64,000 bases of DNA, from IMG/VR virus record IMGVR_UViG_3300022555_003212. The stretch is one strand, 5' to 3'. Shown here one piece after another: positions 522-23,167 of the stretch. The position numbers were made by a program, and so were the translations under genes. The notes beneath the pieces are model-generated. The model was not told where the DNA came from, did no database searches, and saw nothing but the letters and a program-made list of their open reading frames with translations. Numbering within the stretch: position 1 is the stretch's first letter; every line of letters begins with the position of its first letter. The stretch is from an uncultured virus (IMG/VR IMGVR_UViG_3300022555_003212) (taxonomy: Duplodnaviria; Heunggongvirae; Uroviricota; Caudoviricetes).

Positions 522-878
522 ATGATCAAAATATTTGAAGATTTTGTTTTATATAAACTTGATTTAAAAAAAGGTGATTATGTTGTCACCTACAGGGAAA
601 AATTTTTGGATGCTTTATTCTTAAGAATGATTGACGTGGATACTAAGCACGGCAATTCTTTAGGCGATCATCAATATCACTGGGACATAATTGATTCTGT
701 TGGGTGGGAAAAGAACCCTGATCTTATGAAGGGTAGAACACGTTGGATGTTTTTGCCAAACACCGAGACTGAAACACTATTATACTCTGGATCGATCTAT
801 GGTAAAGCTCAGGATGCATTTGATCAAGCAAAATTAACTATACAAAGACTGGCAAGTACGAGGAGGTTTGACTTATGA
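522..878 (+). CDS. class A tagged protein, paralog of 16182
   Basis: MIKIFE...RRFDL. Confidence 0.85.
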   Translation: MIKIFEDFVLYKLDLKKGDYVVTYREKFLDALFLRMIDVDTKHGNSLGDHQYHWDIIDSVGWEKNPDLMKGRTRWMFLPNTETETLLYSGSIYGKAQDAFDQAKLTIQRLASTRRFDL

Positions 879-1225
879 TAACTAATTTCAAACTATTTGA
901 AACCAATTTGGTTCATACCATCGTTAAAGATAAATTTCTCTGTGTTAAATCTGATGCCCCCGAATTTACGGCTGGTAAAATTTATGATTGCTATGAAGAA
1001 AAATCCAATTTTATACTAATCGTAAATGATCATGGTCGAGAAGAAAAAATAATTGAGAATCATTGGTTGTTCAATAAAAAACATAATACAATTTCAACTC
1101 ACCACTATTCATACATGAAGCAAACATCATCAGTTACAGCAAATTTTTTGTATGCCTATTTTATGAAGAATAAAACGTTAGAAGAATATGAAAAAATGCA
1201 AAGAGAAAAAAGATTTGATTTATAA
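875..1225 (+). CDS. class A tagged protein (LCxK..FTxGKxY family)
   Basis: MITNFKLFE...KRFDL. Confidence 0.85.
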   Translation: MITNFKLFETNLVHTIVKDKFLCVKSDAPEFTAGKIYDCYEEKSNFILIVNDHGREEKIIENHWLFNKKHNTISTHHYSYMKQTSSVTANFLYAYFMKNKTLEEYEKMQREKRFDL

Positions 1226-1241
1226 AAAATAATAACTAATT

Positions 1242-1444
1242 ATGAAATACTTAAGTCGTATTAATGAAAATACAACAATAAAGAAGGACCTTAAACAACG
1301 TTCAGAATATATAACTGTTGAGGTTATATCTGATTCTTTATACTTTTTGCCAACTTTAAAATGGGGGTGCGCTTTTTTATCATGTTTATCATTTCTAACA
1401 CACAATATTAAATCTTCTTCTTTTAATGTATCAAATGTTTTCAT
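1242..1444. pseudogene. 5' halves of two convergent genes joined, 3' ends apparently deleted
   Basis: + strand MKYLSRINE from 1242 and - strand MKTFD..LILCV..FKVGKKY from 1444 run into each other near 1330; neither has a tail tag. Confidence 0.5.
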
Positions 1445-1460
1445 ACATTCTAATTTTCAA

Positions 1461-1533
1461 CAAATATACAAACAACTATTCAAATAAAAAAATCAAACAA
1501 ATTTTTTTTTCTCATATAATAGTTGTACATTTG
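1461..1533. promoter_or_regulatory. divergent Bacteroidota-type -7 promoters (TAnnTTTG)
   Basis: TATATTTG on - strand 1461-1468; TACATTTG on + strand 1526-1533. Confidence 0.65.
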
Positions 1534-1550
1534 TACTTTAATTCAACTAT

Positions 1551-1892
1551 ATGGTAGCCAAAGGAGAATATCTGATCATTAAACCAACTAACCGCTGGGA
1601 AACAAATCCAGATACAAAACCGCCACGACTTATTCGTATTGAATCAGGCCCTATATTAGATATGGGTATTAATAATGGTGAACCTGTTGAAGTTACTAAC
1701 CCACTTGGAATAAAGCATGCACTTGCAGACAGAAACATTTGGGGTGGATCGTGTGCTTTATATTTTGACCCATTCGGTAGGTACTGGTCGGGTAATGGAA
1801 ATGATTATGAAATACTTTGGAGAGGATTCGATCTTGATGAAGCAAACAGGAATTTGATTTCAATTGTTAATGGTAATAGATTCGACTTATGA
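1551..1892 (+). CDS. FDL-tailed protein, no N-tag
   Basis: MVAKGEY...NRFDL. Confidence 0.85.
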   Translation: MVAKGEYLIIKPTNRWETNPDTKPPRLIRIESGPILDMGINNGEPVEVTNPLGIKHALADRNIWGGSCALYFDPFGRYWSGNGNDYEILWRGFDLDEANRNLISIVNGNRFDL

Positions 1893-2221
1893 TAGGTAAA
1901 ACTCCATCACAACGTAAGCATGAACGCCTAATTAAAAGACGTGCTGCTATGGATTTAAAAAATCCTAAGAAACCTGAATTTAAAGAGGGTGAAATTGTAT
2001 ATTGTAAGCATGAACTGGATAGTTCCCTAATATTTGGTGAAACTTATACAATTGGAACAATTACAAAAAATATTACTTCAGTATATTCTTATTGGGTAAT
2101 AGGTAAGCTTTCAAACGGTCACGAAGAAGGTGGTAATTTTGCTGAATATAGATTTACCAATTCTAAAGATATAATTGAAAAAATAAAAAAATATAGAATT
2201 CAAAAAAGATTTGACTTATGA
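1889..2221 (+). CDS. FDL-tailed protein, no N-tag (GExVYC family)
   Basis: ...KRFDL. Confidence 0.85.
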   Translation: MIGKTPSQRKHERLIKRRAAMDLKNPKKPEFKEGEIVYCKHELDSSLIFGETYTIGTITKNITSVYSYWVIGKLSNGHEEGGNFAEYRFTNSKDIIEKIKKYRIQKRFDL

Positions 2222-2547
2222 TACTCAACAAAAGCTTTGATGATGTTGATATAATGTATATGAAATTGCTTTGCGTTAAGTCTGATCATTTGGCAAATTC
2301 TACACATAAATTTACAACTGGTAAAAAATATAAAACTGAGTTTCACATTAACCATCACAATGAAGATGGTAAGCTTCCATTTCTTTTTATTTTAACTGCA
2401 ACAAATATTTTACCTGATGTTACAACAATATCACTATATCAATTGAACGACTATACTTACTATGATAAGGATAGTGATAGTTTGTTTACTCACTTATCAT
2501 TAGAATCATACAACAAAATATTAATTACTGATAGGTTCGACTTATGA
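2218..2547 (+). CDS. FDL-tailed protein, no clear N-tag (LCxK..FTxGKxY family)
   Basis: ...DRFDL. Confidence 0.85.
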   Translation: MILNKSFDDVDIMYMKLLCVKSDHLANSTHKFTTGKKYKTEFHINHHNEDGKLPFLFILTATNILPDVTTISLYQLNDYTYYDKDSDSLFTHLSLESYNKILITDRFDL

Positions 2548-2906
2548 TACAATCAGATAATATTGAGGATGACTTTTGGGATGAACTGGAAGCTCCTAAA
2601 ATAGACCTTAGCAAGCCCCAGATAGGAGATTATGTGATATGTGATATACCACACCATCCTGAAAATAGATTCATCTCAGCCAGTATAGGAAAGATATTTA
2701 ATGCTGAACGAATGCTTGTAAAAGCAACAGTAAAAGATTTACAGGGTCGTGAATATACCGATTGGGTACGTGGTAAGGAAATAATTTACAAAATCAGATG
2801 GGAAAATAAACTTGAACTTGAGGTAGAGCTGGAATACATTAAACATTTTTCGTGGCGAAAAAAGAAATTGGTACGACTACTGAGAGAACAGCGGTTCGAT
2901 TTATAA
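2544..2906 (+). CDS. FDL-tailed protein, no clear N-tag (PxxGDYVIC family)
   Basis: ...QRFDL. Confidence 0.85.
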   Translation: MIQSDNIEDDFWDELEAPKIDLSKPQIGDYVICDIPHHPENRFISASIGKIFNAERMLVKATVKDLQGREYTDWVRGKEIIYKIRWENKLELEVELEYIKHFSWRKKKLVRLLREQRFDL

Positions 2907-2911
2907 GAATT

Positions 2912-2937
2912 GGTGAGAAAGTTTCTCACCTTTTTTT
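2912..2937 (+). terminator. intrinsic terminator
   Basis: GGTGAGAA-agt-TTCTCACC followed by T7. Confidence 0.8.
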
Positions 2938-2949
2938 ATATATACCACC

Positions 2950-3303
2950 ATGAAGTATTTAAAACTGTTTGAAGCAAGCCACCCATATCCAGACACTTTG
3001 CTATGCATTAAAAAGTCTAAGCAAAAATACAAATTTACAGACGGTAAATCATATAAAGTTTATAATGCTACAACAGCCAGATGGTTTGCGCCATACGGGG
3101 TATATGATGAATTTATGCTGCGCCCAGACGATGACGAAAATGGTACGCAATATAAATTGGTGCATGCTTATTTGGAACATTCAACAGGAGTTAATTCATT
3201 CAAATATTATTACATGGGTAGTGATGATGGTGGCGCATTATTCACAACAGAAACACTCGAAGAATATAAAAAAAGAACAGCACAAGAAAGATTTGACCTA
3301 TGA
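2950..3303 (+). CDS. class A tagged protein (LCxK..FTxGKxY family)
   Basis: TTATATATA 5 nt upstream; MKYLKLFE...ERFDL. Confidence 0.85.
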   Translation: MKYLKLFEASHPYPDTLLCIKKSKQKYKFTDGKSYKVYNATTARWFAPYGVYDEFMLRPDDDENGTQYKLVHAYLEHSTGVNSFKYYYMGSDDGGALFTTETLEEYKKRTAQERFDL

Positions 3304-3677
3304 TTATATCATTTAGCATATATGAGAAACTAAAGCCAGCCACAGAAGCCAAAATAGGCGATTATATCCTCTTTGAGACACTTTCTTATGAAAATGATAG
3401 AGAACTATCAAAAAGGATAATACCATTCTTAAAAGGTACCGTAGGAAAGATTATAGATATAAAAGCTGGGACAACAATTGTAGTTGCGTGGTATATTCAA
3501 GATTCATTCAATGATGATTTTTTCAATGAACATGGAAATAACTTATATTCACATGAATTTAATGCGTTCAATCCATTCAATATGAAAACTATTGAAAAAA
3601 ATGATCACACATATTTTGTTTCATCTAATAAAAAAGAATTGGAAAAACTTTTAGTACAAAAAAGATTTGACCTATGA
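3300..3677 (+). CDS. class A tagged protein (GDY family)
   Basis: MIISFSIYE...KRFDL. Confidence 0.85.
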   Translation: MIISFSIYEKLKPATEAKIGDYILFETLSYENDRELSKRIIPFLKGTVGKIIDIKAGTTIVVAWYIQDSFNDDFFNEHGNNLYSHEFNAFNPFNMKTIEKNDHTYFVSSNKKELEKLLVQKRFDL

Positions 3678-4043
3678 TAACAGATTTTAATGTTTTTGAA
3701 AATAATTCAAAACCTCAGGTTGGTGATTATGTAATTGTTGAAGATAAAACTCTTTCTGGGTTTGCTGGATTAAACAATTCAGAAGCAGAGGCACATGACT
3801 TCATCTTAGGATCAGTTGGGCAAATAGTTTATATTGGAGATTATCAAAACGATAGTTCACATCCATATCTGGTTAGATTCAAACATGTACCTGAACATTT
3901 AACTGGATTCTTTCCAGTAGAAGCTGAAGGTGAAAGTACACCAAGTGGGAATAAGATTGTTTGCAGAAAGTGAAATAAAATTCTTTGGTAAATCTGAGTT
4001 AGTAGTTAAGGCCCAACAAAAAGGAAATCGATTTGATTTATGA
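3674..4043 (+). pseudogene. class A gene with 1-nt frameshift near 3947
   Basis: MITDFNVFE...; alternative frame from 3951 gives IRLFAESEIKFFGKSELVVKAQQKGNRFDL-stop. Confidence 0.75.
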
Positions 4044-4453
4044 TACATATTAAATTATACAAAGAATCTAAGCAATATGAATATGAAATAGATATGAAAA
4101 CTCTGTTAAATTTCTGTGCAAAAATGGATGGGTTTGTAAAATTTTTTAGTTATTTTATGGATGATTTGTTTTTAAAACGTAAAGTGGAATTTTATTGTAA
4201 TCAATGTGGCACTATGCACACTGGGGTTGTAAATCATGTTGCATATGAAATTTGGGATGATGTAGATGATCATAGCAAATTTTTCTGGGATAGATTACAG
4301 TTTCAATTAAACGAATGGAAAGATGATGAAATTTGGAATCATCAAACTGATGTAAATTATTCTGTTACTATCAGAAGTAAATTACCAGAAAGATTTACAA
4401 AAATTTTAGATTATGCTAAAAAGGATAAAACATTTCAGCAATTCGATTTATAA
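4040..4453 (+). CDS. class A tagged protein
   Basis: MIHIKLYKE...QQFDL. Confidence 0.85.
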   Translation: MIHIKLYKESKQYEYEIDMKTLLNFCAKMDGFVKFFSYFMDDLFLKRKVEFYCNQCGTMHTGVVNHVAYEIWDDVDDHSKFFWDRLQFQLNEWKDDEIWNHQTDVNYSVTIRSKLPERFTKILDYAKKDKTFQQFDL

Positions 4454-4912
4454 ATCGAACTGTTCTTCTTTCAATTTTTGATTGTAAAAATTTACATTGA
4501 TATTCGGAATATCCTTTCTATCAAATATTATGTCACTGTAATCAGTTAGCATCTTCAAATTCTTTAATATTAGTGTTCTTTTTTCAATATCAAAATTTAA
4601 AGCTATTAATAATTTTGTTGTACAATCAATTCTAAATGTTGCATCTTTTTCATTGGTGCCATGCCAACTTATAGCTAAATTAAATTCTTTTCTATTCACT
4701 GAATTAATTTTAACCATCATAACAGTTCCACCTCTTCGTTGAAGACTTATTCTTTTTGGTATTGTGCCGCCAATTGTACTTGGGTTTATATTTGAACTGA
4801 CATCAAATGATTGAAAAAATGCCTTAATATTATTAAAAAAATCTTCCATATCATATACAGCTTTATCTGCGGCTGCATCTTCAACTTGATTATATTCACG
4901 CAAAAATTTCAT
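4448..4912 (-). CDS. class A tagged protein
   Basis: MKFLREYNQVE...EQFDL; tail-to-tail with 4040. Confidence 0.85.
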   Translation of the reverse strand: MKFLREYNQVEDAAADKAVYDMEDFFNNIKAFFQSFDVSSNINPSTIGGTIPKRISLQRRGGTVMMVKINSVNRKEFNLAISWHGTNEKDATFRIDCTTKLLIALNFDIEKRTLILKNLKMLTDYSDIIFDRKDIPNINVNFYNQKLKEEQFDL

Positions 4913-4916
4913 GATC

Positions 4917-4932
4917 TATATATTAATATATA
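4917..4932. promoter_or_regulatory. palindromic bidirectional late-type promoter
   Basis: Perfect palindrome TATATATTAATATATA between divergent tagged genes (ATG 4912 - and 4944 +). Confidence 0.65.
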
Positions 4933-4943
4933 CTCGTGAAATT

Positions 4944-5369
4944 ATGAGATATATTAAACATTACGAAAAAGTAGAAGAGCAACAACCATTTATCAAAGGT
5001 GAGTATATGATATGGAAAATGGTTGAGGATAAAATTAAGTTGCCATCAAATATGTATCAAGGAATATCACCAGAAGAAGGTAATAATTTTTTCTTAGTTC
5101 AGACATTAAAAGGCGGAAAAAAACAAGCTGGCACTGGATATCCTAAACCTAAGAATGAGTATGCCAATGGTCAAATTTTAAATGTTAGGTGGTCAACACC
5201 AGATTTTATGATCAGAATTAATGTTTTATATGATTATAAAGATGAATCATATTACGATGAAGGTGGTAAACTTGGAGGTAGATGGAAATTAGTTTGGAGA
5301 GGTACGAATTTGAAAAAAGCAAAAGAAAAATTAAAAATGATGCCAGCAGAAAATAGATTTGATTTATGA
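4944..5369 (+). CDS. class A tagged protein
   Basis: Start moved to MRYIKHYE;...NRFDL. Confidence 0.8.
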   Translation: MRYIKHYEKVEEQQPFIKGEYMIWKMVEDKIKLPSNMYQGISPEEGNNFFLVQTLKGGKKQAGTGYPKPKNEYANGQILNVRWSTPDFMIRINVLYDYKDESYYDEGGKLGGRWKLVWRGTNLKKAKEKLKMMPAENRFDL

Positions 5370-5632
5370 TAACAAAATTTAAACTATTTGAAAATTTAAA
5401 TGCCCCCAAAAAAGGATATTATGCCATGGTTAGTGAGGTACAACTTAAAGATAAAGTATTCACTGATCATATTGGAATTATAAAGAAAGTTCACAATGAT
5501 GATGAAATCTTTGTGGAATTTGAAGAAGAACCAAATACTTGGATTGAATTTTTACCTTTTGAAGTATTAGCATGGGGTAAGACTAAAGATGATGTGAAAA
5601 AAATTGTAATACAAGACAGATTCGACCTATGA
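5366..5632 (+). CDS. class A tagged protein (GDY family)
   Basis: MITKFKLFE...DRFDL. Confidence 0.85.
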   Translation: MITKFKLFENLNAPKKGYYAMVSEVQLKDKVFTDHIGIIKKVHNDDEIFVEFEEEPNTWIEFLPFEVLAWGKTKDDVKKIVIQDRFDL

Positions 5633-5937
5633 TAACTAACTATAAATTGTTTGAAACAATTGAAAAATATAAAGCTTTTTTTGTAACATGCATAATCAAA
5701 AGACATGGATCAATTAGTGATTTTATATTCACAAACAATAAAGAATACAAAATAACTCCGCACCCAGTGGGGAATTGGAAATTTTCACTGATTGATGATG
5801 TTGGAACAACTAAATATTTGGTACAAATTAATGCAAATGAATTTAAATCTAAGGATTCTCTTACCGATTATATAATATTTGTTAAAGATGTTGAAACTTA
5901 TAGAAAGAATTGTATCGAAAAAGAATTTGATCTATGA
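5629..5937 (+). CDS. class A tagged protein
   Basis: MITNYKLFE...KEFDL. Confidence 0.85.
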   Translation: MITNYKLFETIEKYKAFFVTCIIKRHGSISDFIFTNNKEYKITPHPVGNWKFSLIDDVGTTKYLVQINANEFKSKDSLTDYIIFVKDVETYRKNCIEKEFDL

Positions 5938-6203
5938 TAACCAACTATAAATTATTTGAAGGCAAAAATTTTCCAACAAAAGGTGATTATGTTATGATAT
6001 CATTTCCAGAATTTTTTAAAGATAAATGGGGATTAATAACAGATGTTAGAGCATCTGGTGATCATTTTTTTGTAAAGTTTGAATTCGCTATTCATTCTAT
6101 TAATCGTAATGATATTGTAACATGGACAAAAACTAAAAAAGAACGAGAGTTAGTAAGGATAGAAATTGAAAAACAAAAAATAAAAAAGCAATTTGATTTA
6201 TGA
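5934..6203 (+). CDS. class A tagged protein (GDY family)
   Basis: MITNYKLFE...KQFDL. Confidence 0.85.
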   Translation: MITNYKLFEGKNFPTKGDYVMISFPEFFKDKWGLITDVRASGDHFFVKFEFAIHSINRNDIVTWTKTKKERELVRIEIEKQKIKKQFDL

Positions 6204-6493
6204 TAACCAGCTATAAAATATTTGAATCATTACATAATCATGTATTACTTATAACAGAGCCGCATTCAGACTATTATCGCAAATTTACATATGGGAAACT
6301 GTATAAATTATATGATAGTGGGAAAGCTGGATTAAGATTAAAAGATGATAATGGTAAGTTTGATAATCTTTGGATACATGATGTTCGGGAGGTTCCTATC
6401 ATATTTACAAATGGGGCTCGGTATTCGTTTACAAGAGATAAAAGTATTGAAGCATATAAAAGAAGATTAACACAGCAACAATTTGATCTATAA
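6200..6493 (+). CDS. class A tagged protein
   Basis: MITSYKIFE...QQFDL. Confidence 0.85.
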   Translation: MITSYKIFESLHNHVLLITEPHSDYYRKFTYGKLYKLYDSGKAGLRLKDDNGKFDNLWIHDVREVPIIFTNGARYSFTRDKSIEAYKRRLTQQQFDL

Positions 6494-6793
6494 GTCAAAT
6501 CTTTTACCTACGAGCATAGATTCAATACTCCTTCTATTACTTGAGTGAAATACAATCTTATTTTTATTGAACCTTTTTATATGATAATTACCATCATTTT
6601 TGAAATAATGCTTAGCTAAAAACTCTGGGAAGTTTTCATCATAGAAAACAACAACGTATTCGTTTTTGACTACGGTGGAGATTTGCCCAATATGAGTTGC
6701 CAGATATGATGTCATAATCTTATCACCTATGCTTTCTTTGCATAGAACGAATTCCCCCGCTTCACAATATACTGGTTCCCCTTGAATTTTCAT
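6488..6793 (-). CDS. FDL-tailed protein, no N-tag (GDY family)
   Basis: Start MKIQGEP at 6793 after TATTTTTG (6809-6816);...KRFDL. Confidence 0.8.
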   Translation of the reverse strand: MKIQGEPVYCEAGEFVLCKESIGDKIMTSYLATHIGQISTVVKNEYVVVFYDENFPEFLAKHYFKNDGNYHIKRFNKNKIVFHSSNRRSIESMLVGKRFDL

Positions 6794-6859
6794 ATCGAAT
6801 AATTTTTGCAAAAATACAACAATAATTCGAATAAAAAAAATTTTAAAGAATAAAAAAAT

Positions 6860-7360
6860 TTAAAGGCTATTAATTCGTTTCAATTTTTCAATACGTGATC
6901 CTTTAATCCGCTTACCTACATTCTCAGGCTTCATATATATGTCATAATCACCATAAATGAAAAAACCATGTTTTTCTGACAATTCATCACGCTTTAACTC
7001 ATTTTGTATGCTACGTATATGTTGATCCATCAGGTCGTCATCAACAGTAAACATAATAATTTCACGAAAAGGACTAAAGCATAACTGAGACAGAAAATTT
7101 TCTGCTAACTTGTTCTCTTTTGTGGTTTCCGATAAATTATATGATACATCCATTATATAATTTAAAACGTAACATATACGGGAGCCGCTTAGTTTCATGA
7201 CTTCATTTGTAAAATTATTCATGTCCTTTGGCGAAGCTGTGGCTGGTATATTTGGCTGGTTGAAAACTTTAATCAGAATAAATTCAACAAAATCAACAAC
7301 AATCTGATTTTCCTTTTTATTAGAAATTTGATTGATATAAACATCAAGAATATTTTCCAT
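6860..7360 (-). CDS. hypothetical protein, paralog of 20474, class B-like tail
   Basis: MENILDVY...FLSQLCFSPFR...SRIEKLKRI. Confidence 0.8.
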   Translation of the reverse strand: MENILDVYINQISNKKENQIVVDFVEFILIKVFNQPNIPATASPKDMNNFTNEVMKLSGSRICYVLNYIMDVSYNLSETTKENKLAENFLSQLCFSPFREIIMFTVDDDLMDQHIRSIQNELKRDELSEKHGFFIYGDYDIYMKPENVGKRIKGSRIEKLKRINSL

Positions 7361-7689
7361 TATTTTAATCTGTTTAACATTATCATTTTTTGATCTGGAA
7401 ACAATTTTATATATGCTTCAAGCGGTGATAATCTGTTATCACCTCTCAAATTTTTATCCTTTCGTAGTTTGGATAGGTCCAATCCTTCGGTTATAATTTC
7501 GTCAGATGTAATAACACATGGGCAACAACGCATTTCAAGTTTCATTACCCTTTTAGTGTAGCCTATTGGCACCAAATCATTATAAATATCTGATGATTCA
7601 TTCAATCGCTCCCTTGATTCTACATGAGCGTAATAGTGCAACCATTGTATTTCAATATCAATAAGTTTGCATAGTTCATTTAATTCCAT
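7360..7689 (-). CDS. hypothetical protein
   Basis: 109 aa ORF; TATATTTG at 7694-7701. Confidence 0.75.
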   Translation of the reverse strand: MELNELCKLIDIEIQWLHYYAHVESRERLNESSDIYNDLVPIGYTKRVMKLEMRCCPCVITSDEIITEGLDLSKLRKDKNLRGDNRLSPLEAYIKLFPDQKMIMLNRLK

Positions 7690-7749
7690 TAAGCAAATAT
7701 AATGAATATTTCTTATAAAAAAAAGTTGAGTGAATTTTATATATACAAT

Positions 7750-8113
7750 ATGAGATATTTAAAGCTATTCGAAGACAGATTATAATCCAGACAATGAAAA
7801 TACAATTGAAGAAGATGATTATGTAGATTTTGGTAGAAATAAAATTGGTAAATGCTATCATGTATTTGTCAATCATATGTCTGAAATAGATGGTTATATT
7901 AACCCAAAGGCTACTCTTCAAGGTAAAAAAATAAAGGTTAGAACAGGATACTTCAAAACTATCATAATTGATGGAAATGGATATGGTGTAGAAGAACTTG
8001 AAGAAATATTTCCACTTGACTATAAAAAACCACCAAAAGCAACACCAGAACAAATAAAAGAATATGATAAAATAGAATTCAGAAATAAAACAGAAAAGCG
8101 ATTTGACTTATGA
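7750..8113 (+). pseudogene. class A gene frameshifted just after N-tag
   Basis: MRYLKLFEDRL-stop from 7750; other frame open from about 7775 to KRFDL. Confidence 0.7.
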
Positions 8114-8448
8114 CATATATTAAATTATTCGAAAGCAAAATAGGAGACATAGAATATACACCTACTGGAACGTATTTATTATGTGTAAAATCACCAGATG
8201 AGGTTTCATCTGGAATGATGGTAACCATATGGAAAAAATATAACCTTCTGAGTAAATTTAATAGGTTTAGTGAAAGAGCAACCCTTGCTATAAAAGATGA
8301 TATGGGTAACTATAGAGGTATACAACCATCTTGGACTAATGATTGTGAGTATACAAGAGGAAACATTAATCAATCAGTAATATTCACAACAGACAATTCA
8401 ATGGAAGCATATAAAAAAAGAAAAGCACAAGATAGATTTGACCTATGA
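8110..8448 (+). CDS. class A tagged protein (LCxK family)
   Basis: MTYIKLFE...DRFDL. Confidence 0.85.
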   Translation: MTYIKLFESKIGDIEYTPTGTYLLCVKSPDEVSSGMMVTIWKKYNLLSKFNRFSERATLAIKDDMGNYRGIQPSWTNDCEYTRGNINQSVIFTTDNSMEAYKKRKAQDRFDL

Positions 8449-9079: not shown

Positions 9080-9094
9080 TTTAATATATATCCT

Positions 9095-12658: not shown

Positions 12659-12718
12659 TGTCATATATATTAAATCTACCTAACAATAAATTGCATCATC
12701 ATTTTAATATATACTTTT

Positions 12719-15482: not shown

Positions 15483-15844
15483 TGACACAGTTTAAATTAT
15501 TTGAAGGAAAAAAATATCCAAAGGTTGGCGATTACGTTATTTGTGAGTTAGAACTATACAATTCAGATGCCAAAGAGCAAGCAACTAAATTTTTAAATAA
15601 TTCAATTGGACGAATTGTTGATGATGAAGATGCTCAGGTAGATTTTGTTAGTAGAATTAAAATAAAATCATATAAAATAGAATTTTTTAATGTTCCATCA
15701 GATGTACAAAGAGAATATTTTGCTACCTATAGCAATGCATTTCCGATATATGATAGTTGGGTTGTGTTTGGTGATATTAGATACTGGTCAGAAGATAAAA
15801 AAGAATTAGAAAGAATACTTACAGAAAGAAGATTTGACCTATGA
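15479..15844 (+). CDS. class A tagged protein (GDYVIC family)
   Basis: MMTQFKLFE...RRFDL. Confidence 0.85.
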   Translation: MMTQFKLFEGKKYPKVGDYVICELELYNSDAKEQATKFLNNSIGRIVDDEDAQVDFVSRIKIKSYKIEFFNVPSDVQREYFATYSNAFPIYDSWVVFGDIRYWSEDKKELERILTERRFDL

Positions 15845-16185
15845 TAACTAACTTTAAATTATTTGAGGGCAAAACAGACATATATCTTGTTTGTATTAAA
15901 TTTGATGAACTGGCAAAAGCATTTGGGTTGAACTTTACAGTCGGTAAAAGATATCAATTATATATAACTGGTGACCCAAATGGGGTTTTAGTTCCAACAT
16001 ACAGACTTAGAAATGATATTGGAAAATTTAAAGAAATAATTGATACTCACAAAAGTCGTGGTCATCAACATCCCGCTGAAAATGTATCAATATTCACCGC
16101 TTTCATAACATTTGATTGCCTATTTACAACAGAAACATGGGAAGAATATCAAAAACGAACACAAATAGAAAGATTTGACCTATGA
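15841..16185 (+). CDS. class A tagged protein (LxCIK..FTVGKRY family)
   Basis: MITNFKLFE...ERFDL. Confidence 0.85.
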   Translation: MITNFKLFEGKTDIYLVCIKFDELAKAFGLNFTVGKRYQLYITGDPNGVLVPTYRLRNDIGKFKEIIDTHKSRGHQHPAENVSIFTAFITFDCLFTTETWEEYQKRTQIERFDL

Positions 16186-16601
16186 TAACTAACTTTAAAT
16201 TATTTGAAAATAGAATATCAGACTCAATGTGGAGTAAATTAACAATGGATTCATCATCTCCAACACATTATTTGAAACCAAATGTACTAAAAGATGGTGA
16301 CTATATTGTAGAGTATAGAGAAAAATTTTTGGATGGTCTCTTATTACAATACTTAGGATTAAATAAAACCAGTGGCTCAATAAGATTTCCATATTATAAT
16401 TTTAAAGTTATAGATGAATTAGGATGGTACCATAAAAATGGATTTTATAGAGTAGGAAAGACCCATGGATCATTTGGTCCAGCATAAGAATTGGATACAG
16501 TATTATATATCGGTACTGATTTAGAAGAAGCGAAATTAGCATTTCAAAAAGTACGAGAAATTGTTGGAAAATTAAAAACAATAAATCGATTCGACCTATG
16601 A
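16182..16601 (+). pseudogene. class A gene with in-frame TAA at 16485-16487
   Basis: Same frame continues ELDTVLYIG...INRFDL; aligns with paralog 522. Confidence 0.8.
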
Positions 16602-16934
16602 TAACACAATTCTATTTATTTGAATCATCTATTGATATACCAGATTTAATCTGTATATTATCTTTAAATAAAACAATATTTACGGTAGGTAGAATTTATC
16701 CTATTGAGCATCACCTATCCCAATTTTCTACCAAAATTAAAAATAATAAATATAAATATATATGATGATGATTTTGTCAAAATTAAAATAGATACACTTA
16801 AAAATAATGGCTACAATATACCATCAAATTTAAAATTATACACCACTTGGAAGAGCGGTGAATTTGTTATTTTCTCAGACGAAACTATAGATCAATATCA
16901 AAAACGATTAAAAGAAGAACAATTTGATCTATAA
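16598..16934 (+). pseudogene. class A gene, frameshift near 16755
   Basis: MITQFYLFE..LICI..FTVGRIY in one frame, ...EEQFDL in another. Confidence 0.75.
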
Positions 16935-16985
16935 ATTTTTTTTATTCGATATCCTTTCATACATTTGTGCTTTATTTAAATAATT

Positions 16986-17306
16986 ATGAAATATATCAAA
17001 TTTACGTGCGTTGATAATGGTACTGAACTGATAGGAAAACTACATAAAGTATTTTCTATTGGTGAATATAGTGCAGAATTTAATAGTTTTGTTATATTTA
17101 AAAATACGCTCCTTCCACCATTCCCTATAGTTGAAATTGTTAAGAACTTTGAATATTTTCTACCAAACGATATAGCAAAGGATTTGCCTACTCATATAAA
17201 TTTAAGAAGATTTGTTGGTGAAAAAGTTTATATTTTGAACATTCCAAGTCAAAAAGAAATAGATAAATATGAAAGAACTATAAGTACAAATCGTTTTGAC
17301 TTATGA
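16986..17306 (+). CDS. FDL-tailed protein without Glu-ending N-tag
   Basis: TACATTTG 16960-16967;...NRFDL. Confidence 0.85.
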   Translation: MKYIKFTCVDNGTELIGKLHKVFSIGEYSAEFNSFVIFKNTLLPPFPIVEIVKNFEYFLPNDIAKDLPTHINLRRFVGEKVYILNIPSQKEIDKYERTISTNRFDL

Positions 17307-17761
17307 TGGAAGTACAAAAAATAGTTAAAAGCTCATCTTCTGGTCGGACCAAAGAGATTGAAATCGTCTACTTTGATGAAAATCTTAGTAGTAAATCTCG
17401 TGCTGCCTATATACTTCTTAAGGATGAATTAAGGTTACAAGATGTAGATTATATCGAAACATTATCATTCAGATCAGAAGAAATTGAATTCAGTAGAAAC
17501 TATCTAACCAAAGAAAAAGAATTAAATGGTGATTTAGTTTGCTCATACTGTGGCAGACCGCATTTGGAAATTGAATATGAAGGAATGCTTATACCAGAAA
17601 GGAAAAAAGCTACAGTAGATCATATTGTGCCAGTGTCTAAAGGCGGGGATAAATTTAATATAAAAAATATAAGAGTAGCATGTTCTCCATGCAATACAAA
17701 AAAAAGTGATAAAGATGCTGATGTTTTTATAAAAAATGTTAGACATTTTATGGAGTTATAA
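17303..17761 (+). CDS. HNH endonuclease (McrA/HNH_5-like)
   Basis: CSYCG...ATVDHIVPVSKGG...NIRVACSPCNTKK. Confidence 0.85.
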   Translation: MMEVQKIVKSSSSGRTKEIEIVYFDENLSSKSRAAYILLKDELRLQDVDYIETLSFRSEEIEFSRNYLTKEKELNGDLVCSYCGRPHLEIEYEGMLIPERKKATVDHIVPVSKGGDKFNIKNIRVACSPCNTKKSDKDADVFIKNVRHFMEL

Positions 17762-17910
17762 ATCGAATTGTTTTTCCTTCATTCTCCTCATATAACCTTC
17801 GTGTGATGCATCAGTGGTAAATATTGCTTCAAACTTACCACCTTGGTCATAAACCTTTTCCTTGACAAGATCATCGAAATGGGTTCGCTTTAGATTTTTG
17901 GTTAATACTA
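17756..17910 (-). pseudogene. 5'-truncated FDL-tailed gene
   Basis: AIFTTDASHEGYMRRMKEKQFDL; TATTTTTG promoter at 17920-17927 but no in-frame ATG after it. Confidence 0.6.
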
Positions 17911-17977
17911 ATTGAATTGCAAAAATATAAATTGTTTTTGAATAAAAAAAAGTTATAATCATTTTAATATATACCTC

Positions 17978-18334
17978 ATGATCACTAAATTTCAACTGTA
18001 CGAAAATTTCAAACCATTTGAAGGTACCAAGGAAAACGATTGGATAATCTTGAAAAAATTATACCCATATAGGAACGCATCAGACATTGAACTAATTAAA
18101 ACTGTGCAATATAAAATAGGTAAAGTGTTTCTAACATCCAATACTGAGAAATTTGGAAAAACTGTCTGGATAAAATATTACGAACCACTACCAACTTTCG
18201 CCAAAACCGTACCATATGATGATAAAAATGTATCTGTTATTAAATTGGATGCCGCAGATATATCAAAAGCATTTGTATCTAAGAATAAAAAGGACCTACA
18301 AAAAATATTACACCAAGACCAATTCGACCTATGA
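17978..18334 (+). CDS. class A tagged protein
   Basis: TAATATATA 17965-17973; MITKFQLYE...DQFDL. Confidence 0.85.
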   Translation: MITKFQLYENFKPFEGTKENDWIILKKLYPYRNASDIELIKTVQYKIGKVFLTSNTEKFGKTVWIKYYEPLPTFAKTVPYDDKNVSVIKLDAADISKAFVSKNKKDLQKILHQDQFDL

Positions 18335-18399
18335 TAACAAAATTTCAACTATACGAAAAAATTAGGGCACAACAAAAAGGAAATCAATTTGACCTATGA
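18331..18399 (+). CDS. tag-only mini-ORF (22 aa), not in ORF track
   Basis: MITKFQLYEKIRAQQKGNQFDL with ATGA overlaps on both sides. Confidence 0.75.
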   Translation: MITKFQLYEKIRAQQKGNQFDL

Positions 18400-18680
18400 A
18401 ATATCTGAAACTATTTGAAAATAATCTGGATGATTTCTCTCAATGGGAAAAAGGTGATATGGTCTATTATATTGGAACAGATAATTTATTCCCGTATGGC
18501 TCAAAACTTACAATTCAAGGAATAATATTTGATAAAGAAACAAAGGAGCCTGAACGTTTTAATAGATGTATTCAATTAGATGATAGACCTGTTTACTATT
18601 CAATATTTGGGTTACTTAAAGATGAACAACGATTCACTAAAGATATAAGAAAAATTCATCAACAAAGATTCGACCTATGA
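18396..18680 (+). CDS. class A tagged protein (GDxVY family)
   Basis: MKYLKLFE...QRFDL. Confidence 0.85.
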   Translation: MKYLKLFENNLDDFSQWEKGDMVYYIGTDNLFPYGSKLTIQGIIFDKETKEPERFNRCIQLDDRPVYYSIFGLLKDEQRFTKDIRKIHQQRFDL

Positions 18681-19018
18681 AATATTTAATAACATATGAA
18701 AATAAAATAAAAAAATTCAAATTTACCAAATTTAAAGTTGGGGATGAAGTTTATTTAATATCTCTTCCAAATGGTCATACAAATCTAACTAATGTTGCAT
18801 CTGAAATACCTAATCTTGGTCAAAAATATAAAATAAAAGAAATATCACCAACACGTGAGGATGATATCGTTTGTGATGATACTTCACCACACTTCTTAGA
18901 ATACCATATTTATCTACATGGGCTACCAATTTATCAATACTTTTTACCAGATCAATTAACAACAAATCTTAAACACCCAGCATTCAAAAAAATACATCAA
19001 CAGAGATTTGACCTATGA
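18677..19018 (+). CDS. class A tagged protein (GDxVY family)
   Basis: MKYLITYE...QRFDL. Confidence 0.85.
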   Translation: MKYLITYENKIKKFKFTKFKVGDEVYLISLPNGHTNLTNVASEIPNLGQKYKIKEISPTREDDIVCDDTSPHFLEYHIYLHGLPIYQYFLPDQLTTNLKHPAFKKIHQQRFDL

Positions 19019-19143
19019 TAACTAACTTTAAACTATTTGAATCAAAGAAATCGGGACTGGTTAGATTCAAAACGATTTACTACCGATCCAATAGTAATTG
19101 CAGAATTTAAAAGAAAACAAACACAACAAAGATTCGATTTATG
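19015..19143 (+). pseudogene. class A remnant, internal out-of-frame deletion
   Basis: MITNFKLFESK head; tail WLDSKRFTTDPIVIAEFKRKQTQQRFDL in another frame. Confidence 0.75.
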
Positions 19144-19159
19144 AAATATATTAAAGAAA

Positions 19160-20926: not shown

Positions 20927-20927
20927 A

Positions 20928-21611
20928 CTACTTCCTTTCTTGATACCTTTTAATGATATGCATCTTCATTGCCTTCTTGCTCCACATATCAGCATAATCC
21001 AAACACGTATCACCACTGGCATCCTTGGCATATGGATCAGCACCACGATCCATCAGCATATCAACAATGACAATCTGCTCGGCTGACCTATATTTATTCC
21101 CAGAAATGAAATGCAGTGGTGTTGCCCTTGATATTGATATATCAATAGGCTTATTAACATCAGCACCAGCCGAAATTAACATCTTGGCAATCTCATATGA
21201 CTTGCAGTCAATCGCAAGGCACAACAGCGTCCATCCAGCGGGCCAATGATCACCGTTCTTTGTCAATGCATCAACATCACCACCAGAATCCATGTATGAC
21301 TTCACAAATGCAATATCATTCTGATAAATTGCTGTCTCAATTGACTTACCATTTGAATCACCACCAATAAGATATTCCAAAAAAGAATCAGAATCGGAAA
21401 ACCTTAACTTGTCAACCTCAATGGTTGCACTACATTCATCCGAACAATCACCATGACATTCAAACATGGAATCTTCTAACCCGTCCTTCTTCAACTTGGC
21501 TATGATAGATTGATTTACATTCTTAGGATCAATAATAAACGTGCCCTTCTTTTTAGAACCACACACTATTAAAATGTTGGAAGACCCACAGGTATTACAT
21601 TTAACTCTCAT
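20928..21611 (-). CDS. ankyrin-repeat protein with N-terminal Cys-rich (Zn) domain
   Basis: MRVKCNTCG; GWTLLCLAI...LISAGADVN; TPLHF...GADPYAKDASGDTCLDYA. Confidence 0.85.
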   Translation of the reverse strand: MRVKCNTCGSSNILIVCGSKKKGTFIIDPKNVNQSIIAKLKKDGLEDSMFECHGDCSDECSATIEVDKLRFSDSDSFLEYLIGGDSNGKSIETAIYQNDIAFVKSYMDSGGDVDALTKNGDHWPAGWTLLCLAIDCKSYEIAKMLISAGADVNKPIDISISRATPLHFISGNKYRSAEQIVIVDMLMDRGADPYAKDASGDTCLDYADMWSKKAMKMHIIKRYQERK

Positions 21612-21711
21612 AGGGATAACGTTTTTCGTATATATTACAAATATAAACAAAATGTTTAAACAAAAAAAATCACTCACCTTTTTAATATATACTAAAAAAT
21701 AATTACACCCA

Positions 21712-22032
21712 ATGAAACATCTTAAATCAATCAACGAATTTGCTCAACCAGATTATGATACAGTGAACCAAGTGTTCGATGCCCCACAAGAAGAGAATAT
21801 AACACCAGAGGAATTTCAATCATTTGCTGATAAAATATTAGATAAAGTCCCAACCGTTGGGTTTGATCGGGCAACAGCGGAAATGTCAGATTTACTTAAA
21901 AAATTCCCTTGGCTTAAAACCGCCCCAGAATATTCTGACATATATCAAACATTTTTAACTCAATGGCATAAGTTTAAATTTGGAGGAGAATTTCGATGGA
22001 ATACAGGAGGAGGAGAACCTATTGTTCATTAA
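21712..22032 (+). CDS. N-tagged protein without FDL tail
   Basis: MKHLKSINE; TAATATATA 21683-21691. Confidence 0.8.
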   Translation: MKHLKSINEFAQPDYDTVNQVFDAPQEENITPEEFQSFADKILDKVPTVGFDRATAEMSDLLKKFPWLKTAPEYSDIYQTFLTQWHKFKFGGEFRWNTGGGEPIVH

Positions 22033-22045
22033 AATGAATCAACAT

Positions 22046-22360
22046 ATGAAAAATTATCAACTGTTCACCGAAGACCTTATTACTAAGCAAATGGCTAAAT
22101 CAGCCCTGAAACTAATTCAAAAAGAAATTTCAGATAAAGCTAAACTCATAGGCGGATTCGGTAAAGGTAAAACAACATCAATGCATGATATAGATATTCT
22201 TATTCCATTCATGAAATTTGATACAGAACTAAAAAATAAACTCAAAAATCTACTCAATGCCAAATCAGTTACAAATACAGACTGGGGTGGATGGTATTTT
22301 ACTGGTACAGATTTCGGTGACGTTGATATATTCTATACAACAAAAGATTTTGACTATTAA
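22046..22360 (+). CDS. N-tagged minimal nucleotidyltransferase (Pol beta fold)
   Basis: MKNYQLFTE; LIGG-x9-HDIDILI and distal DVDIF. Confidence 0.6.
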   Translation: MKNYQLFTEDLITKQMAKSALKLIQKEISDKAKLIGGFGKGKTTSMHDIDILIPFMKFDTELKNKLKNLLNAKSVTNTDWGGWYFTGTDFGDVDIFYTTKDFDY

Positions 22361-22533
22361 AAATAATAGACCACGCTGATATAACCAAAAATCATCTATG
22401 TAATGGATATGAAATACAAGATATTGATACAGGTATAAAAGAAGATGCTTCACCAGAATATGTTGAAATGTATTATGTATTGGATGTAGTCTATCAAAGA
22501 AAAGAAAAATTAAAAATACTATATCAAAAATAA
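22354..22533 (+). pseudogene. 5'-truncated class B gene
   Basis: KIIDHAD...YYVLDVVYQRKEKLKIL, resembles 44252/44499; no start. Confidence 0.55.
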
Positions 22534-22543
22534 TATATAGTAC

Positions 22544-23167
22544 ATGAAGTATTTAAAAATGTTCGAAATGAAATCAATTGCTGAACCAATAGAAAGAAGT
22601 ATATGTTACTATAGTAAAAATCCTACAAAATTCACGGTAGGTAAATCATATAAGCAATACTCAAATAATACATCGCCCCCACCATTTTCAAAAGGATATT
22701 GGACATTTAATAATAACGGGGTCAGCCAAGATACATACTTTAACTGGGATCATTTCACAAAACAAGATCATAGCGCATTATTTACACAAGCAAAATCACT
22801 GACGGAAATGCGTAGTTGGATAAGACCTGTTGGGCAATTCTTTAAATTTGTTTGCCCAGAAACAATATTACAAATAGGTTATATGGACTTTTTAGAATTA
22901 GTATACAAACCATTAAATGGTACTATAGGTCAAATTATAGAACACGCAAAAATCGGTGATAATGATTATATGACAAAAGGTAAAGTTTTATTTTATAATT
23001 TTGATTATGATAAATATATGAAACAAGATAGACACTTCACACACGCAATTCAAGAAACTCCAGAAGGACACACAGCATGGATATCATATTACGATCTCAG
23101 ACCATCAATAACTTTATCTGATAAAGAAGTAAAAGTTTTGTTATCAACTAAACAATTTGATCTGTAA
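22544..23167 (+). CDS. class A tagged two-unit protein
   Basis: TAATATATA 22531-22539; MKYLKMFE...KQFDL. Confidence 0.85.
   Translation: MKYLKMFEMKSIAEPIERSICYYSKNPTKFTVGKSYKQYSNNTSPPPFSKGYWTFNNNGVSQDTYFNWDHFTKQDHSALFTQAKSLTEMRSWIRPVGQFFKFVCPETILQIGYMDFLELVYKPLNGTIGQIIEHAKIGDNDYMTKGKVLFYNFDYDKYMKQDRHFTHAIQETPEGHTAWISYYDLRPSITLSDKEVKVLLSTKQFDL

What the first reader, a model, noticed from the sequence alone, without database searches (positions are those of the whole stretch)
522..23167. Library of about 58 unrelated small proteins sharing an exact C-terminal FDL tag (variable payload plus constant handle)
Seen: about 58 genes or remnants (also at 43393 and 57377-61759) end in a basic helix plus [R/Q/K/E/V]-F-D-L immediately before the stop. 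Their bodies belong to several unrelated families. The constraint is on the peptide: codons vary synonymously (AGA/AGG/CGT/CGA/CGG, TTT/TTC, GAT/GAC). Leu is TTA/CTA where the ATGA or tail-to-tail overlap requires it, but CTG at 23162 and CTT at 43972. The tag is kept on last-in-operon and convergent genes and on both strands. Inference: a free-carboxylate docking motif (fits the Phi-x-Phi-COOH pattern read by PDZ-type clamps) that recruits many different payloads to one common partner, such as a protease/unfoldase, an ejection channel or a scaffold. The logic would resemble F-box or SOCS-box adaptor families. I know of no described phage system of this kind and scale.
Basis: partly seen in the sequence, partly recalled or inferred. 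Interest (0 to 1): 0.92.

Follow-up and report, generated by a model that had tools for sequence, protein, structure and literature searches.

The report
Megaphage protein library with shared end-tags
A giant uncultured phage devotes about a third of this window to over fifty small, very different proteins that all start and end with the same few amino acids, which look like address labels that hand a whole library of binding proteins to one still unknown partner.

Summary
51 of 178 called genes in the window end in FDL (0.05 expected). The same 176-kb contig and related metagenome contigs hold 122 unique such proteins. Synonymous sites in the tag vary freely, so selection acts on the peptide. 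The bodies are not all unrelated. 34 of 52 window members form one divergent SH3/chromo-barrel-like superfamily and 18 stay unlinked. In relatives the same termini sit on ankyrin and leucine-rich repeats. A profile finds 2366 representative proteins in metagenomes. Related giant phages (a 330-kb fragment rated 46% complete) use K[FY]N[LI] instead of [RQ]FDL, uniformly within each contig. Best reading: a diversifying repertoire of binder modules carrying two short terminal docking motifs for a common partner. My favoured concrete model, unproven, is prohead loading. The N-terminus resembles the T4 capsid-targeting propeptide (cut after Glu), the C-terminus an encapsulin-type loading peptide, and one tag-bearing relative encodes an S77-like head protease. 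No partner was identified. This is a new variant of a known kind.

The parts
522..19144 (.). Main array of FDL-tagged genes. It holds 42 ORFs of at least 60 aa on both strands, plus short remnants. It is interrupted by a few untagged genes (6860-7876 minus strand, HNH endonuclease 17303-17761).
15479..15844 (+). Representative member (121 aa): MMTQFKLFE, then an SH3/chromo-barrel-like beta-barrel, then a C-terminal helix (residues 107-119), then RFDL.
   Evidence: AF2 mean pLDDT 81.7; residues 1-10 average 45; last residue 51. Best fold matches are chromo-barrel, PWWP, Tudor and PsaE at Z 6-6.7.
59790..60227 (-). Member with a different, alpha/beta-type body (145 aa). It was not linked to the main superfamily by the iterated profile search on trimmed bodies.
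   Evidence: AF2 pLDDT only 51; order of elements helix-strand-strand-helix-strand-helix
22544..23167 (+). Isolated 207-aa member ending QFDL with Leu = CTG and stop TAA.
43393..43977 (+). Isolated 194-aa member inside the second family's array, ending RFDL with Leu = CTT and stop TAG.
56752..56997 (-). Member ending KFDM. Its body clusters with FDL members 8807-9079 and 18677-19018.
57377..58769 (+). Three intact members and one frameshifted member (57730-58048).
59790..61759 (-). Five members joined by ATGA overlaps.
3674..4043 (+). Broken member: an N-motif ORF (3674-3973) and a tag-bearing ORF (3930-4043) in another frame.
16182..16934 (+). Two broken members. 16182-16601 has one in-frame stop. 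16598-16934 is frameshifted.
4448..4453 (.). Tail-to-tail overlap of two convergent members: both strands read ..TTC GAT TTA TAA inside the palindrome TTCGATTTATAAATCGAA. The same arrangement is at 6488-6493 and 11479-11484.
2907..2937 (+). G+C-rich inverted repeat followed by a T run, directly after the TAA of a tagged gene. It looks like a terminator, so this is a last-in-operon gene that keeps the tag.
   Evidence: read directly from the sequence printed; no terminator scan was run

Best explanation
The window comes from a very large uncultured tailed phage. It carries a fast-diversifying, tandemly amplified family of small proteins (median 118 aa), all built on one plan. The plan is: a short disordered N-terminal motif (M-I-T-K-F-K-[LI]-[FY]-E or M-K-Y-[IL]-K-x-[FY]-E); a variable protein-binding module; a basic amphipathic helix; and an invariant free C-terminal tetrapeptide [RQK]-[FY]-[DN]-[LI], which is [RQ]FDL in this phage. 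The variable module is usually an SH3/chromo-barrel-like barrel, sometimes an alpha/beta domain, and in relatives ankyrin or leucine-rich repeats. Both ends behave as short linear motifs under peptide-level selection. They most likely dock every member onto one common, probably phage-encoded, partner, while the middle supplies many different specificities. This much is inferred from sequence. My favoured concrete model (about 0.25 on its own) is that the ends are prohead-loading signals. In that model the N-terminal motif acts like the T4 capsid-targeting propeptide and is cut after its Glu by an S77-type head maturation protease. The C-terminal peptide acts like an encapsulin cargo-loading peptide on the capsid or scaffold interior. 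The phage would then inject a pre-made library of binders (anti-defence or host take-over proteins) together with its DNA. The confidence given is for the general statement: terminal docking motifs on a binder repertoire with a common partner.
For: Enrichment: 51 of 178 genes end in FDL against 0.05 expected. Peptide-level selection: synonymous sites vary at least as much as in gene bodies, Arg is coded by both AGR and CGN, and the tag is kept in 16 of 56 genes without an overlapping downstream start. The N-motif and the tag co-occur: 36/15/5/122 in the window and 72/31/10/449 in the 330-kb relative. The termini are not part of the fold: pLDDT averages 45 for residues 1-10 and 51 for the last residue in an otherwise confident model, and both ends are below 50 in the second model. 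The same termini sit on different folds: ankyrin in 11 and LRR in 2 of 106 regex-matched proteins of the relative (a few of the 106 are chance matches), ankyrin also in the FDL lineage, and an SH3-like barrel. All of these are protein-binding modules. The tag is lineage-specific but uniform within a genome. The FDL contigs have 119 FDL among 122. The 330-kb relative has KFNL 48, KFNI 43, KYNI 6, KYNL 4. 24 of 24 IMG/VR loci use K[FY]N-type tags only. Seven non-SH3 FDL bodies have relatives that carry the N-type tag. For the loading model: in 54 of 57 class-A N-termini the motif ends (L/I)-[FY]-E, which is the (L/I)-x-E pattern with processing determinants at P3 and P1 described for T4 gp21 and its 10-residue CTS MKTYQEFIAE (PMC9026906 and PMC8442874, passages read). 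A relative that carries tagged genes encodes portal, major head protein and a 790-aa head maturation protease (phrog_207 E 7e-33; Pfam S77 26.4 bits). A 112-aa KYNL-tagged gene lies inside that head module. Encapsulin cargo is loaded by a short C-terminal peptide that is sufficient for loading heterologous proteins (PMC7355545, passages read).
Against: No partner was identified, and no binding, cleavage or virion presence was shown. The head module of the window's own phage was not available. The S77 Pfam match in the relative is just under the curated cut-off (26.4 against 27 bits). It was absent from 9 of 10 fragmentary records searched, though these are only 8-46% complete. The tagged gene in the head module sits next to a homing endonuclease and may be there by chance, since tagged genes are scattered across the 330-kb record. 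Class-B N-termini lack a consistent aliphatic P3. 40 of 122 members lack the N-motif as I defined it. The lineage-specific tag could reflect expansion after a single change rather than co-evolution with a partner: the AU test does not reject monophyly of the FDL members of the SH3 subfamily (p = 0.85). The R-to-K and D-to-N differences go with lower G+C in the relatives (20-28% against about 30%). More than 100 different packaged proteins would be unprecedented.
Confidence: 0.55

Rival explanations
1. The free C-terminal aromatic-x-aliphatic peptide is a handle read by a PDZ-type clamp, a protease/unfoldase or its adaptor. The family then works like F-box/SOCS-box/PRANC adaptors, bringing bound host proteins to degradation. 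Alternatively the tag is a timed degron for the family itself.
For: The architecture is a variable ankyrin/LRR/SH3-like binding module plus a constant C-terminal handle. The free-carboxylate motif [FY]-x-[LI], preceded by basic residues, is of the type read by PDZ domains and by ClpX-class recognition (from my own knowledge, not tested). Peptide-level selection holds.
Against: No PDZ, TPR, Clp, Lon or tail-specific protease domain was found among 150 untagged proteins of at least 130 aa in the 330-kb relative (44 more were not scanned, and a host partner cannot be excluded). The model does not explain the co-conserved N-terminal motif ending in Glu. No F-box or PRANC-like domain appears in Pfam scans of 52 plus 107 members.
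Confidence: 0.13
2. There is no common partner. This is simply a lineage-specific expansion of one old small-protein family. The ends are kept because they are needed for folding, for solubility, or for self-association of the members (for example N-terminal strand with C-terminal strand, within or between members).
For: 34 of 52 window members join one superfamily. Tandem arrays with broken copies show birth-and-death evolution. The N-terminal K-F-K-L and the C-terminal R-F-D-L resemble each other and could pair (read directly from the sequences). Jumbo-phage expansions of small families are common (PMC7824862, passage on about 35 zinc-ribbon copies in phage G; earlier scan findings).
Against: The same ends occur on ankyrin and LRR proteins, which need no such elements to fold. 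AF2 leaves the N-terminus unplaced (pLDDT 45) and does not pair it with the C-terminus. 18 of 52 window bodies stay unlinked even by iterated profiles.
Confidence: 0.17
3. The conserved ends are a by-product of nucleic-acid constraints at the gene junction (..TTYGAYYTATGATAAC..). The constraint would be translational coupling or re-initiation at ATGA overlaps, or a recombination junction that lets cassettes duplicate and shuffle.
For: 40 of 56 genes overlap the next start as ATGA. The junction pattern occurs 23 times in the window against 0 in shuffles. The TGA/ATG overlap fixes the third base of the last codon as A and the first base of codon 2 as A, which explains part of M-[IK] and the NTA Leu codons (54 of 56). 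Asp GAC is over-used in the tag relative to bodies (p = 2e-5), which hints at some nucleotide-level preference. An earlier scan finding reports a phage array in which the last codons double as the next gene's ribosome-binding site (e1-6013157; unchecked).
Against: Synonymous positions are not conserved. Arg is AGA/AGG/CGA/CGT/CGG and Gln is CAA/CAG in body-like proportions. The tag is intact in 16 of 56 genes with TAA/TAG stops, in convergent pairs and before a terminator-like hairpin. Phe-to-Tyr and Leu-to-Ile replacements in relatives keep the chemistry rather than the bases. The aromatic and Glu positions of the N-motif are not required by the overlap.
Confidence: 0.08

Closest known systems
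T4 internal proteins (IPI, IPII, IPIII) and their capsid-targeting sequence (CTS)
   Same: Both are sets of otherwise diverse small phage proteins that share only a roughly 10-residue N-terminal peptide ending in Glu (T4: MKTYQEFIAE). In T4 that peptide targets them to the prohead core and is removed by the S77 protease gp21, and IPI* is an injected anti-restriction protein (PMC3012670, PMC9026906, PMC8442874; passages read). Here the N-motif is 8-9 residues, aromatic-rich, ends in Glu, and has L/I at P3 in 54 of 57 class-A members.
   Different: There is no sequence homology to T4 internal proteins: no PHROG hit for 52 members. The family has more than 100 members per genome instead of 3-5. 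It carries an additional invariant C-terminal tetrapeptide that T4 internal proteins are not reported to have. Members here are mostly acidic to neutral (median pI 6.1), whereas T4 internal proteins are described as highly basic (PMC8442874). Packaging and cleavage are untested here.
Encapsulin cargo-loading peptides
   Same: A short peptide at the extreme C-terminus, shared by unrelated cargo proteins, is sufficient to load them into an HK97-fold shell (PMC7355545, passages read).
   Different: Encapsulin cargo genes sit in an operon with the shell gene. Here the genes form large arrays away from the one head module seen. The motif differs, and binding to a capsid protein is untested.
Poxvirus ANK/PRANC, F-box and SOCS-box adaptor families
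   Same: The logic is the same: a variable protein-binding module (ankyrin, LRR) plus a constant C-terminal handle, in large virus-encoded families (architecture seen; the comparison itself rests on my own knowledge).
   Different: Those handles are folded domains of about 40-50 residues that bind Skp1 or Elongin. Here the universal part is 4 residues after a helix, and no such Pfam domain was found. The host is a bacterium without a ubiquitin system.
Lineage-specific multigene expansions of jumbo phages
   Same: Both are tandem, translationally coupled arrays of highly diverged small paralogues with a shared C-terminal motif and birth-and-death turnover. Examples are the roughly 35 zinc-ribbon copies in phage G (PMC7824862, passage read) and several arrays noted earlier in this scan (unchecked AI notes).
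   Different: This case differs in scale: 122 unique members in the FDL contigs, about 100 in a 330-kb fragment, and 2366 representative clusters. It also differs in having two terminal motifs, in the motifs sitting on different folds, and in having lineage-specific tag variants.

Membership tests
T4-type CTS-bearing internal (ejected) head proteins | A short N-terminal propeptide shared by otherwise diverse proteins | tested here: met
   82 of 122 unique members carry [FYW]-E at residues 7-8 or 8-9 after M-I-T-K-F-K or M-K-Y-[IL]-K. The motif is disordered in AF2.
T4-type CTS-bearing internal (ejected) head proteins | The propeptide ends at a gp21-type site: Glu at P1 and an aliphatic residue at P3 | tested here: inconclusive
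   Class A: L/I at P3 in 54 of 57. Class B: P3 is variable (T 7, L 4, others; 25 members). This is a pattern match only; cleavage was not shown.
T4-type CTS-bearing internal (ejected) head proteins | An S77 (gp21-like) prohead protease in the same phage | tested here: inconclusive
   The window's own head module was not available. One relative with tagged genes has a 790-aa head maturation protease (phrog_207 E 7.4e-33; PF03420 26.4 bits against a cut-off of 27). There was no match in 9 other fragmentary records.
T4-type CTS-bearing internal (ejected) head proteins | Sequence homology to known internal proteins | tested here: not met
   No significant PHROG or Pfam family for 52 window members. 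No tblastn hit in 50,697 phage records for two members.
T4-type CTS-bearing internal (ejected) head proteins | Presence in the virion and removal of the propeptide | not testable with these tools
   This needs virion proteomics.
Encapsulin-type cargo with a C-terminal loading peptide | A short extreme C-terminal peptide shared by unrelated cargo | tested here: met
   [RQK][FY][DN][LI]-COOH occurs on SH3-like, alpha/beta, ankyrin and LRR bodies.
Encapsulin-type cargo with a C-terminal loading peptide | The cargo gene lies beside the shell gene, and the peptide binds the HK97-fold shell | tested here: inconclusive
   Only one tagged gene was seen inside a head module; all others lie in separate arrays. 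Binding was not tested.
   F-D-L, F-N-[LI] or Y-N-[LI] directly before the stop codon.
   None among the 150 untagged proteins of the 330-kb relative at E <= 1e-5. 44 proteins and all proteins under 130 aa were not scanned, and host proteins are unknown.
F-box / SOCS-box / PRANC adaptors | A folded C-terminal box domain that binds Skp1 or Elongin C | tested here: not met
   No such Pfam domain in 52 plus 107 members. The universal part is only 4 residues.
Jumbo-phage lineage-specific multigene family | Tandem arrays of diverged paralogues in a large phage genome, with gain and loss of copies | tested here: met
   Arrays with ATGA overlaps; four broken copies; phage genes in relatives; 34 of 52 window members in one superfamily.

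The most novel reading that the evidence does not exclude
Giant phages of this group load more than a hundred different binder proteins (SH3-like, ankyrin, LRR and other modules) into the prohead. Loading would use a two-part address: a cleavable CTS-like N-terminal peptide and a four-residue C-terminal loading peptide. The phage would inject these proteins with its DNA as a pre-made, rapidly evolving arsenal against host defences. The four-residue tag would be the shortest known portable capsid-loading signal, and its variant would be matched to each phage lineage's capsid or scaffold.
Probability: 0.22. Interest if true: 0.9.

Novelty: new variant of a known kind. Interest (0 to 1): 0.74.

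Why it matters
If the ends are docking signals, this is the largest known case in a bacterial virus of the design 'one handle, many payloads'. About 18% of called ORFs in a 330-kb relative (about 100 of 562), 51 of 178 genes in this window, and more than two thousand representative clusters in metagenomes would follow one address code. That would explain part of what very large phage genomes spend their coding capacity on. It would yield a ready-made catalogue of small binders that probably aim at host proteins, possibly defence systems. It would also offer a four-residue tag (plus a nine-residue N-terminal peptide) for directing foreign proteins to the same destination in phage engineering. 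Even without a mechanism, the family deserves a name and a profile, because Pfam and PHROGs hold none.

Tried and rejected
1. Whole-genome access: no genome is held for the window, and the metagenome record is not searchable as a whole. The head genes of the window's own phage could therefore not be examined.

2. Known families: Pfam and PHROGs on 52 members gave nothing above threshold. A PDB sequence profile search gave nothing better than E 0.7. Foldseek against PDB and BFVD gave nothing at E <= 0.001. tblastn and megablast against 50,697 phage records found no match. The exact junction pattern was absent from IMG/VR. No relative was found in 185,579 species genomes with the one peptide pattern that was used.

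4. Test of concerted tag change on a tree of the SH3 subfamily: the D/N state needs 9 changes (shuffled labels about 18-25), but the tree is unresolved and the AU test does not reject one FDL clade (p = 0.85). No conclusion can be drawn.

5. The second AF2 model (alpha/beta type) was poor (pLDDT 51). The ESM Atlas gave only sub-threshold YbjN/CesT-like hints.

6. The complex prediction of two copies of the 15479-15844 protein returned 'no answer' (score 0.01). It is not evidence either way.

7. An idea that the tag is a sliding-clamp-binding tail, and an idea that the phage Hsp70 of the relative reads the N-motif, were considered. Neither was tested. No clamp domain was seen among the proteins scanned.

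8. Literature searches for a description of such a family (terms jumbo phage, ankyrin repeat, paralogous, tandem, huge phages, multigene family, conserved C-terminal, megaphage, expanded gene families) found none. This covers only the open-access library searched.

9. The first run of the iterated-profile script timed out. It was re-run with faster settings.

Full report
**Observation.** A six-frame scan finds 58 FDL-stop sites in the window, out of only 74 FDL tripeptides in all six frames. 57 of these sites close an open frame of at least 36 aa. 52 of 231 ORFs of at least 60 aa end in FDL, and the next commonest C-terminal tripeptide occurs four times. In a non-overlapping gene call, 51 of 178 genes end in FDL against 0.05 expected from composition. 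Internal FDL is not enriched: 4 seen, 5.5 expected. One further member ends in FDM (56752-56997, minus strand).

Most members also share their first nine residues, either M-I-T-K-F-K-[LI]-[FY]-E or, one residue shorter, M-K-Y-[IL]-K-x-[FY]-E.
- The N-motif and the tag go together. In the window 36 genes have both, 15 the tag only, 5 the N-motif only and 122 neither. In a 330-kb relative the counts are 72, 31, 10 and 449.
- Three of the five 'N-motif only' genes are broken copies, whose tag-bearing end follows in another frame or after an in-frame stop (3674-4043, 16182-16601, 16598-16934). A fourth broken copy, 57730-58048, starts MITKYKIFN and so falls outside the N-motif pattern. The family is turning over.
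- Because 40 of 56 genes overlap the next start as ATGA, the tag of one gene and the N-motif of the next form one conserved junction of about 35 nt. That junction matches 23 times in the window and 0 times in shuffles.
- Three convergent pairs overlap tail-to-tail, so that both strands read F-D-L-stop.

**Peptide or DNA?** The evidence points to the peptide.
- Synonymous sites in the tag are at least as free as in the gene bodies. Phe is TTT 35/TTC 21 in the tag against 242/91 in bodies. Asp is GAT 34/GAC 22 against 381/63.
- Arg uses AGA, AGG, CGA, CGT and CGG, and Gln uses CAA and CAG.
- 16 of 56 genes end in TAA or TAG without an overlapping start and still keep the tag. One of them lies just before a terminator-like hairpin.
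- The overlap does fix the third base of the last codon and the first base of codon 2 as A. This explains the NTA Leu codons (54 of 56) and part of the preference for Ile or Lys at residue 2, but nothing else.

**Bodies.**
- With the ends trimmed, BLAST splits the 52 window members into 35 groups. The 122 unique members from the window plus related metagenome loci split into 74 groups.
- Iterated profiles join 34 of the 52 into one superfamily and leave 18 unlinked. 'Unrelated bodies' is therefore overstated, but it is not wrong.
- AF2 on a 27-sequence alignment of the main type gives a confident model (pLDDT 81.7): an SH3-like barrel followed by a C-terminal helix. Residues 1-10 are unplaced (mean 45) and the last residue scores low. 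The nearest folds are chromo-barrel, PWWP, Tudor and PsaE at Z 6-6.7, a generic small barrel.
- A second type (145-170 aa) is predicted as alpha/beta, but with poor confidence (pLDDT 51). Both of its ends again score below 50.
- In the 330-kb relative, 11 tagged proteins have Pfam ankyrin repeats and 2 have leucine-rich repeats. An ankyrin protein with RFDL lies on the window's own contig just outside the window (L010:28-441).
- So the same two ends sit on at least three or four different folds, all of them typical protein-binding modules.

**Distribution.**
- The window is the reverse complement of part of a 176-kb metagenome contig. That contig holds more members on both sides, and near-identical or related contigs occur in other metagenomes.
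- A profile of the main type finds 2366 proteins at E <= 0.001, and 1099 at E <= 1e-10, among 1.84 billion cluster representatives.
- Among the 151 proteins held (150 best hits plus P0002), the N-motif is the same, but the last four residues are KYNL 70, RFDL 16, KYNI 14, KFNI 12, KFNL 11, QFDL 6 and KFGL 5.
- In IMG/VR, 24 of 24 loci use only K[FY]N-type tags.
- A 330-kb record (24% G+C, rated 46% complete by CheckV) has about 100 tagged genes among 562 ORFs: KFNL 48, KFNI 43, KYNI 6 and KYNL 4.
- That record is a giant tailed phage. It has gp32-like SSB, UvsW-like helicase, a split family-B polymerase, topoisomerase II, tail-fibre proteins and many homing endonucleases. It also has Hsp70, IF3, Tad3/Tad4-like and Cas6-like proteins.
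- Completeness estimates for several records (31% for 222 kb) point to genomes of roughly 700 kb.
- No relative was found in the isolate-phage collection or in species genomes.

**Does the tag co-evolve?** The tag is uniform within a genome and differs between lineages. Seven FDL bodies outside the main superfamily have relatives that carry the N-type tag, so several body types changed tag in step. Within the main subfamily, however, the tree is unresolved and one FDL clade is not rejected. In addition, R-to-K and D-to-N are the changes expected from the lower G+C of the relatives. This evidence fits a common reader but does not prove one.

**Mechanism.** Shown: there are two short terminal motifs, they are under selection as peptides, they are not part of the folds, and they are shared by different binding modules. 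Inferred: they are docking signals for one common partner, and the middle supplies the specificity.

The concrete model I favour is loading into the prohead.
- The diverse T4 internal proteins share only a 10-residue N-terminal capsid-targeting sequence (MKTYQEFIAE). It binds the scaffolding core and is cut after Glu by the S77 protease. Targeting determinants lie at residues 4 and 7 and processing determinants at residues 8 and 10. IPI* is an injected anti-restriction protein (PMC3012670, PMC9026906, PMC8442874; passages read).
- Here the N-motif has aromatic residues three apart and ends (L/I)-[FY]-E in 54 of 57 class-A members.
- One relative with tagged genes encodes portal, major head protein and a 790-aa head maturation protease with an S77-like domain. 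A KYNL-tagged 112-aa gene lies inside that head module.
- For the C-terminus, the nearest precedent is the encapsulin cargo-loading peptide, which suffices to load foreign proteins into an HK97-fold shell (PMC7355545).
- Against this model: nothing shows packaging or cleavage; the S77 match is borderline; class-B N-termini fit less well; members are not basic like T4 internal proteins (median pI 6.1); and more than 100 packaged species would be unprecedented.

I put the general reading at 0.55 and the loading model at about 0.22-0.25.

**Novelty.** Tandem expansions of small paralogues with a shared C-terminal motif recur in jumbo phages (PMC7824862; earlier notes of this scan). Variable proteins with one short address are known from T4 and from encapsulins. 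Three things are new here. The first is the scale. The second is the pair of terminal motifs, carried on SH3-like, ankyrin, LRR and other bodies. The third is the lineage-specific four-residue C-terminal tag, in phages whose genomes appear to be among the largest known. I found no description of the family in the searches made, and neither Pfam nor PHROGs holds it.

Noticed in passing
window 28485-57265 and 62058-63949, minus strand: A second, equally large family: 98 small genes (about 55-200 aa) joined by short overlaps. 47 of them fall in one phmmer cluster and 62 carry a basic C-terminal helix motif (..R-K-x-K-L-K-x-L, followed by 0-10 residues). Many begin M-K-K-G-D-K-[IV]-[FY]-C-K. The A1 profile of the FDL family does not hit them. 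The same motif is frequent in the 330-kb relative (55 of 286 genes of at most 120 aa), and members sit beside FDL-type genes in other contigs (L017, L024).
   Followed up: partly
window 25217-26866(+), 17303-17761(+): A free-standing LAGLIDADG homing endonuclease (549 aa) lies here, and an HNH endonuclease (152 aa) lies inside the FDL array. The 330-kb relative has many more, some of them splitting its DNA polymerase gene.
   Followed up: partly
window 20928-21734(-): A 268-aa ankyrin-repeat protein without the FDL tag (Pfam Ank_2 E 4e-13), next to the array. Tagged ankyrin proteins occur just outside the window and in relatives.
   Followed up: partly
window 6860-7360(-), 20474-20926(-); L018 940-1482(+): Three proteins of 150-180 aa begin M-x-x-I-L-D-V-Y and lie embedded in or beside FDL arrays in different contigs. 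They have no Pfam or PHROG match. Their C-termini resemble the second family's basic helix.
   Followed up: no
window, upstream of 1551, 6793(-), 16986, 19327(-), 43346(-), 59633(-): TAnnTTTG lies 23-26 nt upstream of the start codon in 6 of 50 genes that have at least 35 nt of non-coding DNA upstream. Sense-strand density there is 1.9 per kb against 0.83 per kb window-wide. From memory this is the -7 box of Bacteroidota promoters, so it may hint at the host. No statistical test was run beyond these counts.
   Followed up: partly
window 28001-30000: A local G+C bump (0.40 against about 0.30) coincides with small Cys-rich ORFs at 28734-29155 that begin MLV[AV]CE. No tRNA gene was found anywhere in the window.
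   Followed up: no
G001 (L059-L075): The 330-kb relative encodes a full-length Hsp70 (E 5e-200), IF3, a histidyl-tRNA synthetase fragment, Tad3- and Tad4-like Thoeris inhibitors, a Cas6-like protein, an M3 oligopeptidase and NAD-salvage enzymes (NAPRTase, NAD synthase).
   Followed up: no
window 16182-16601(+): A family member, paralogue of 522-878, has a single in-frame stop before an otherwise intact tag-bearing end. It is probably a fresh pseudogene. Read-through was not examined.
   Followed up: partly
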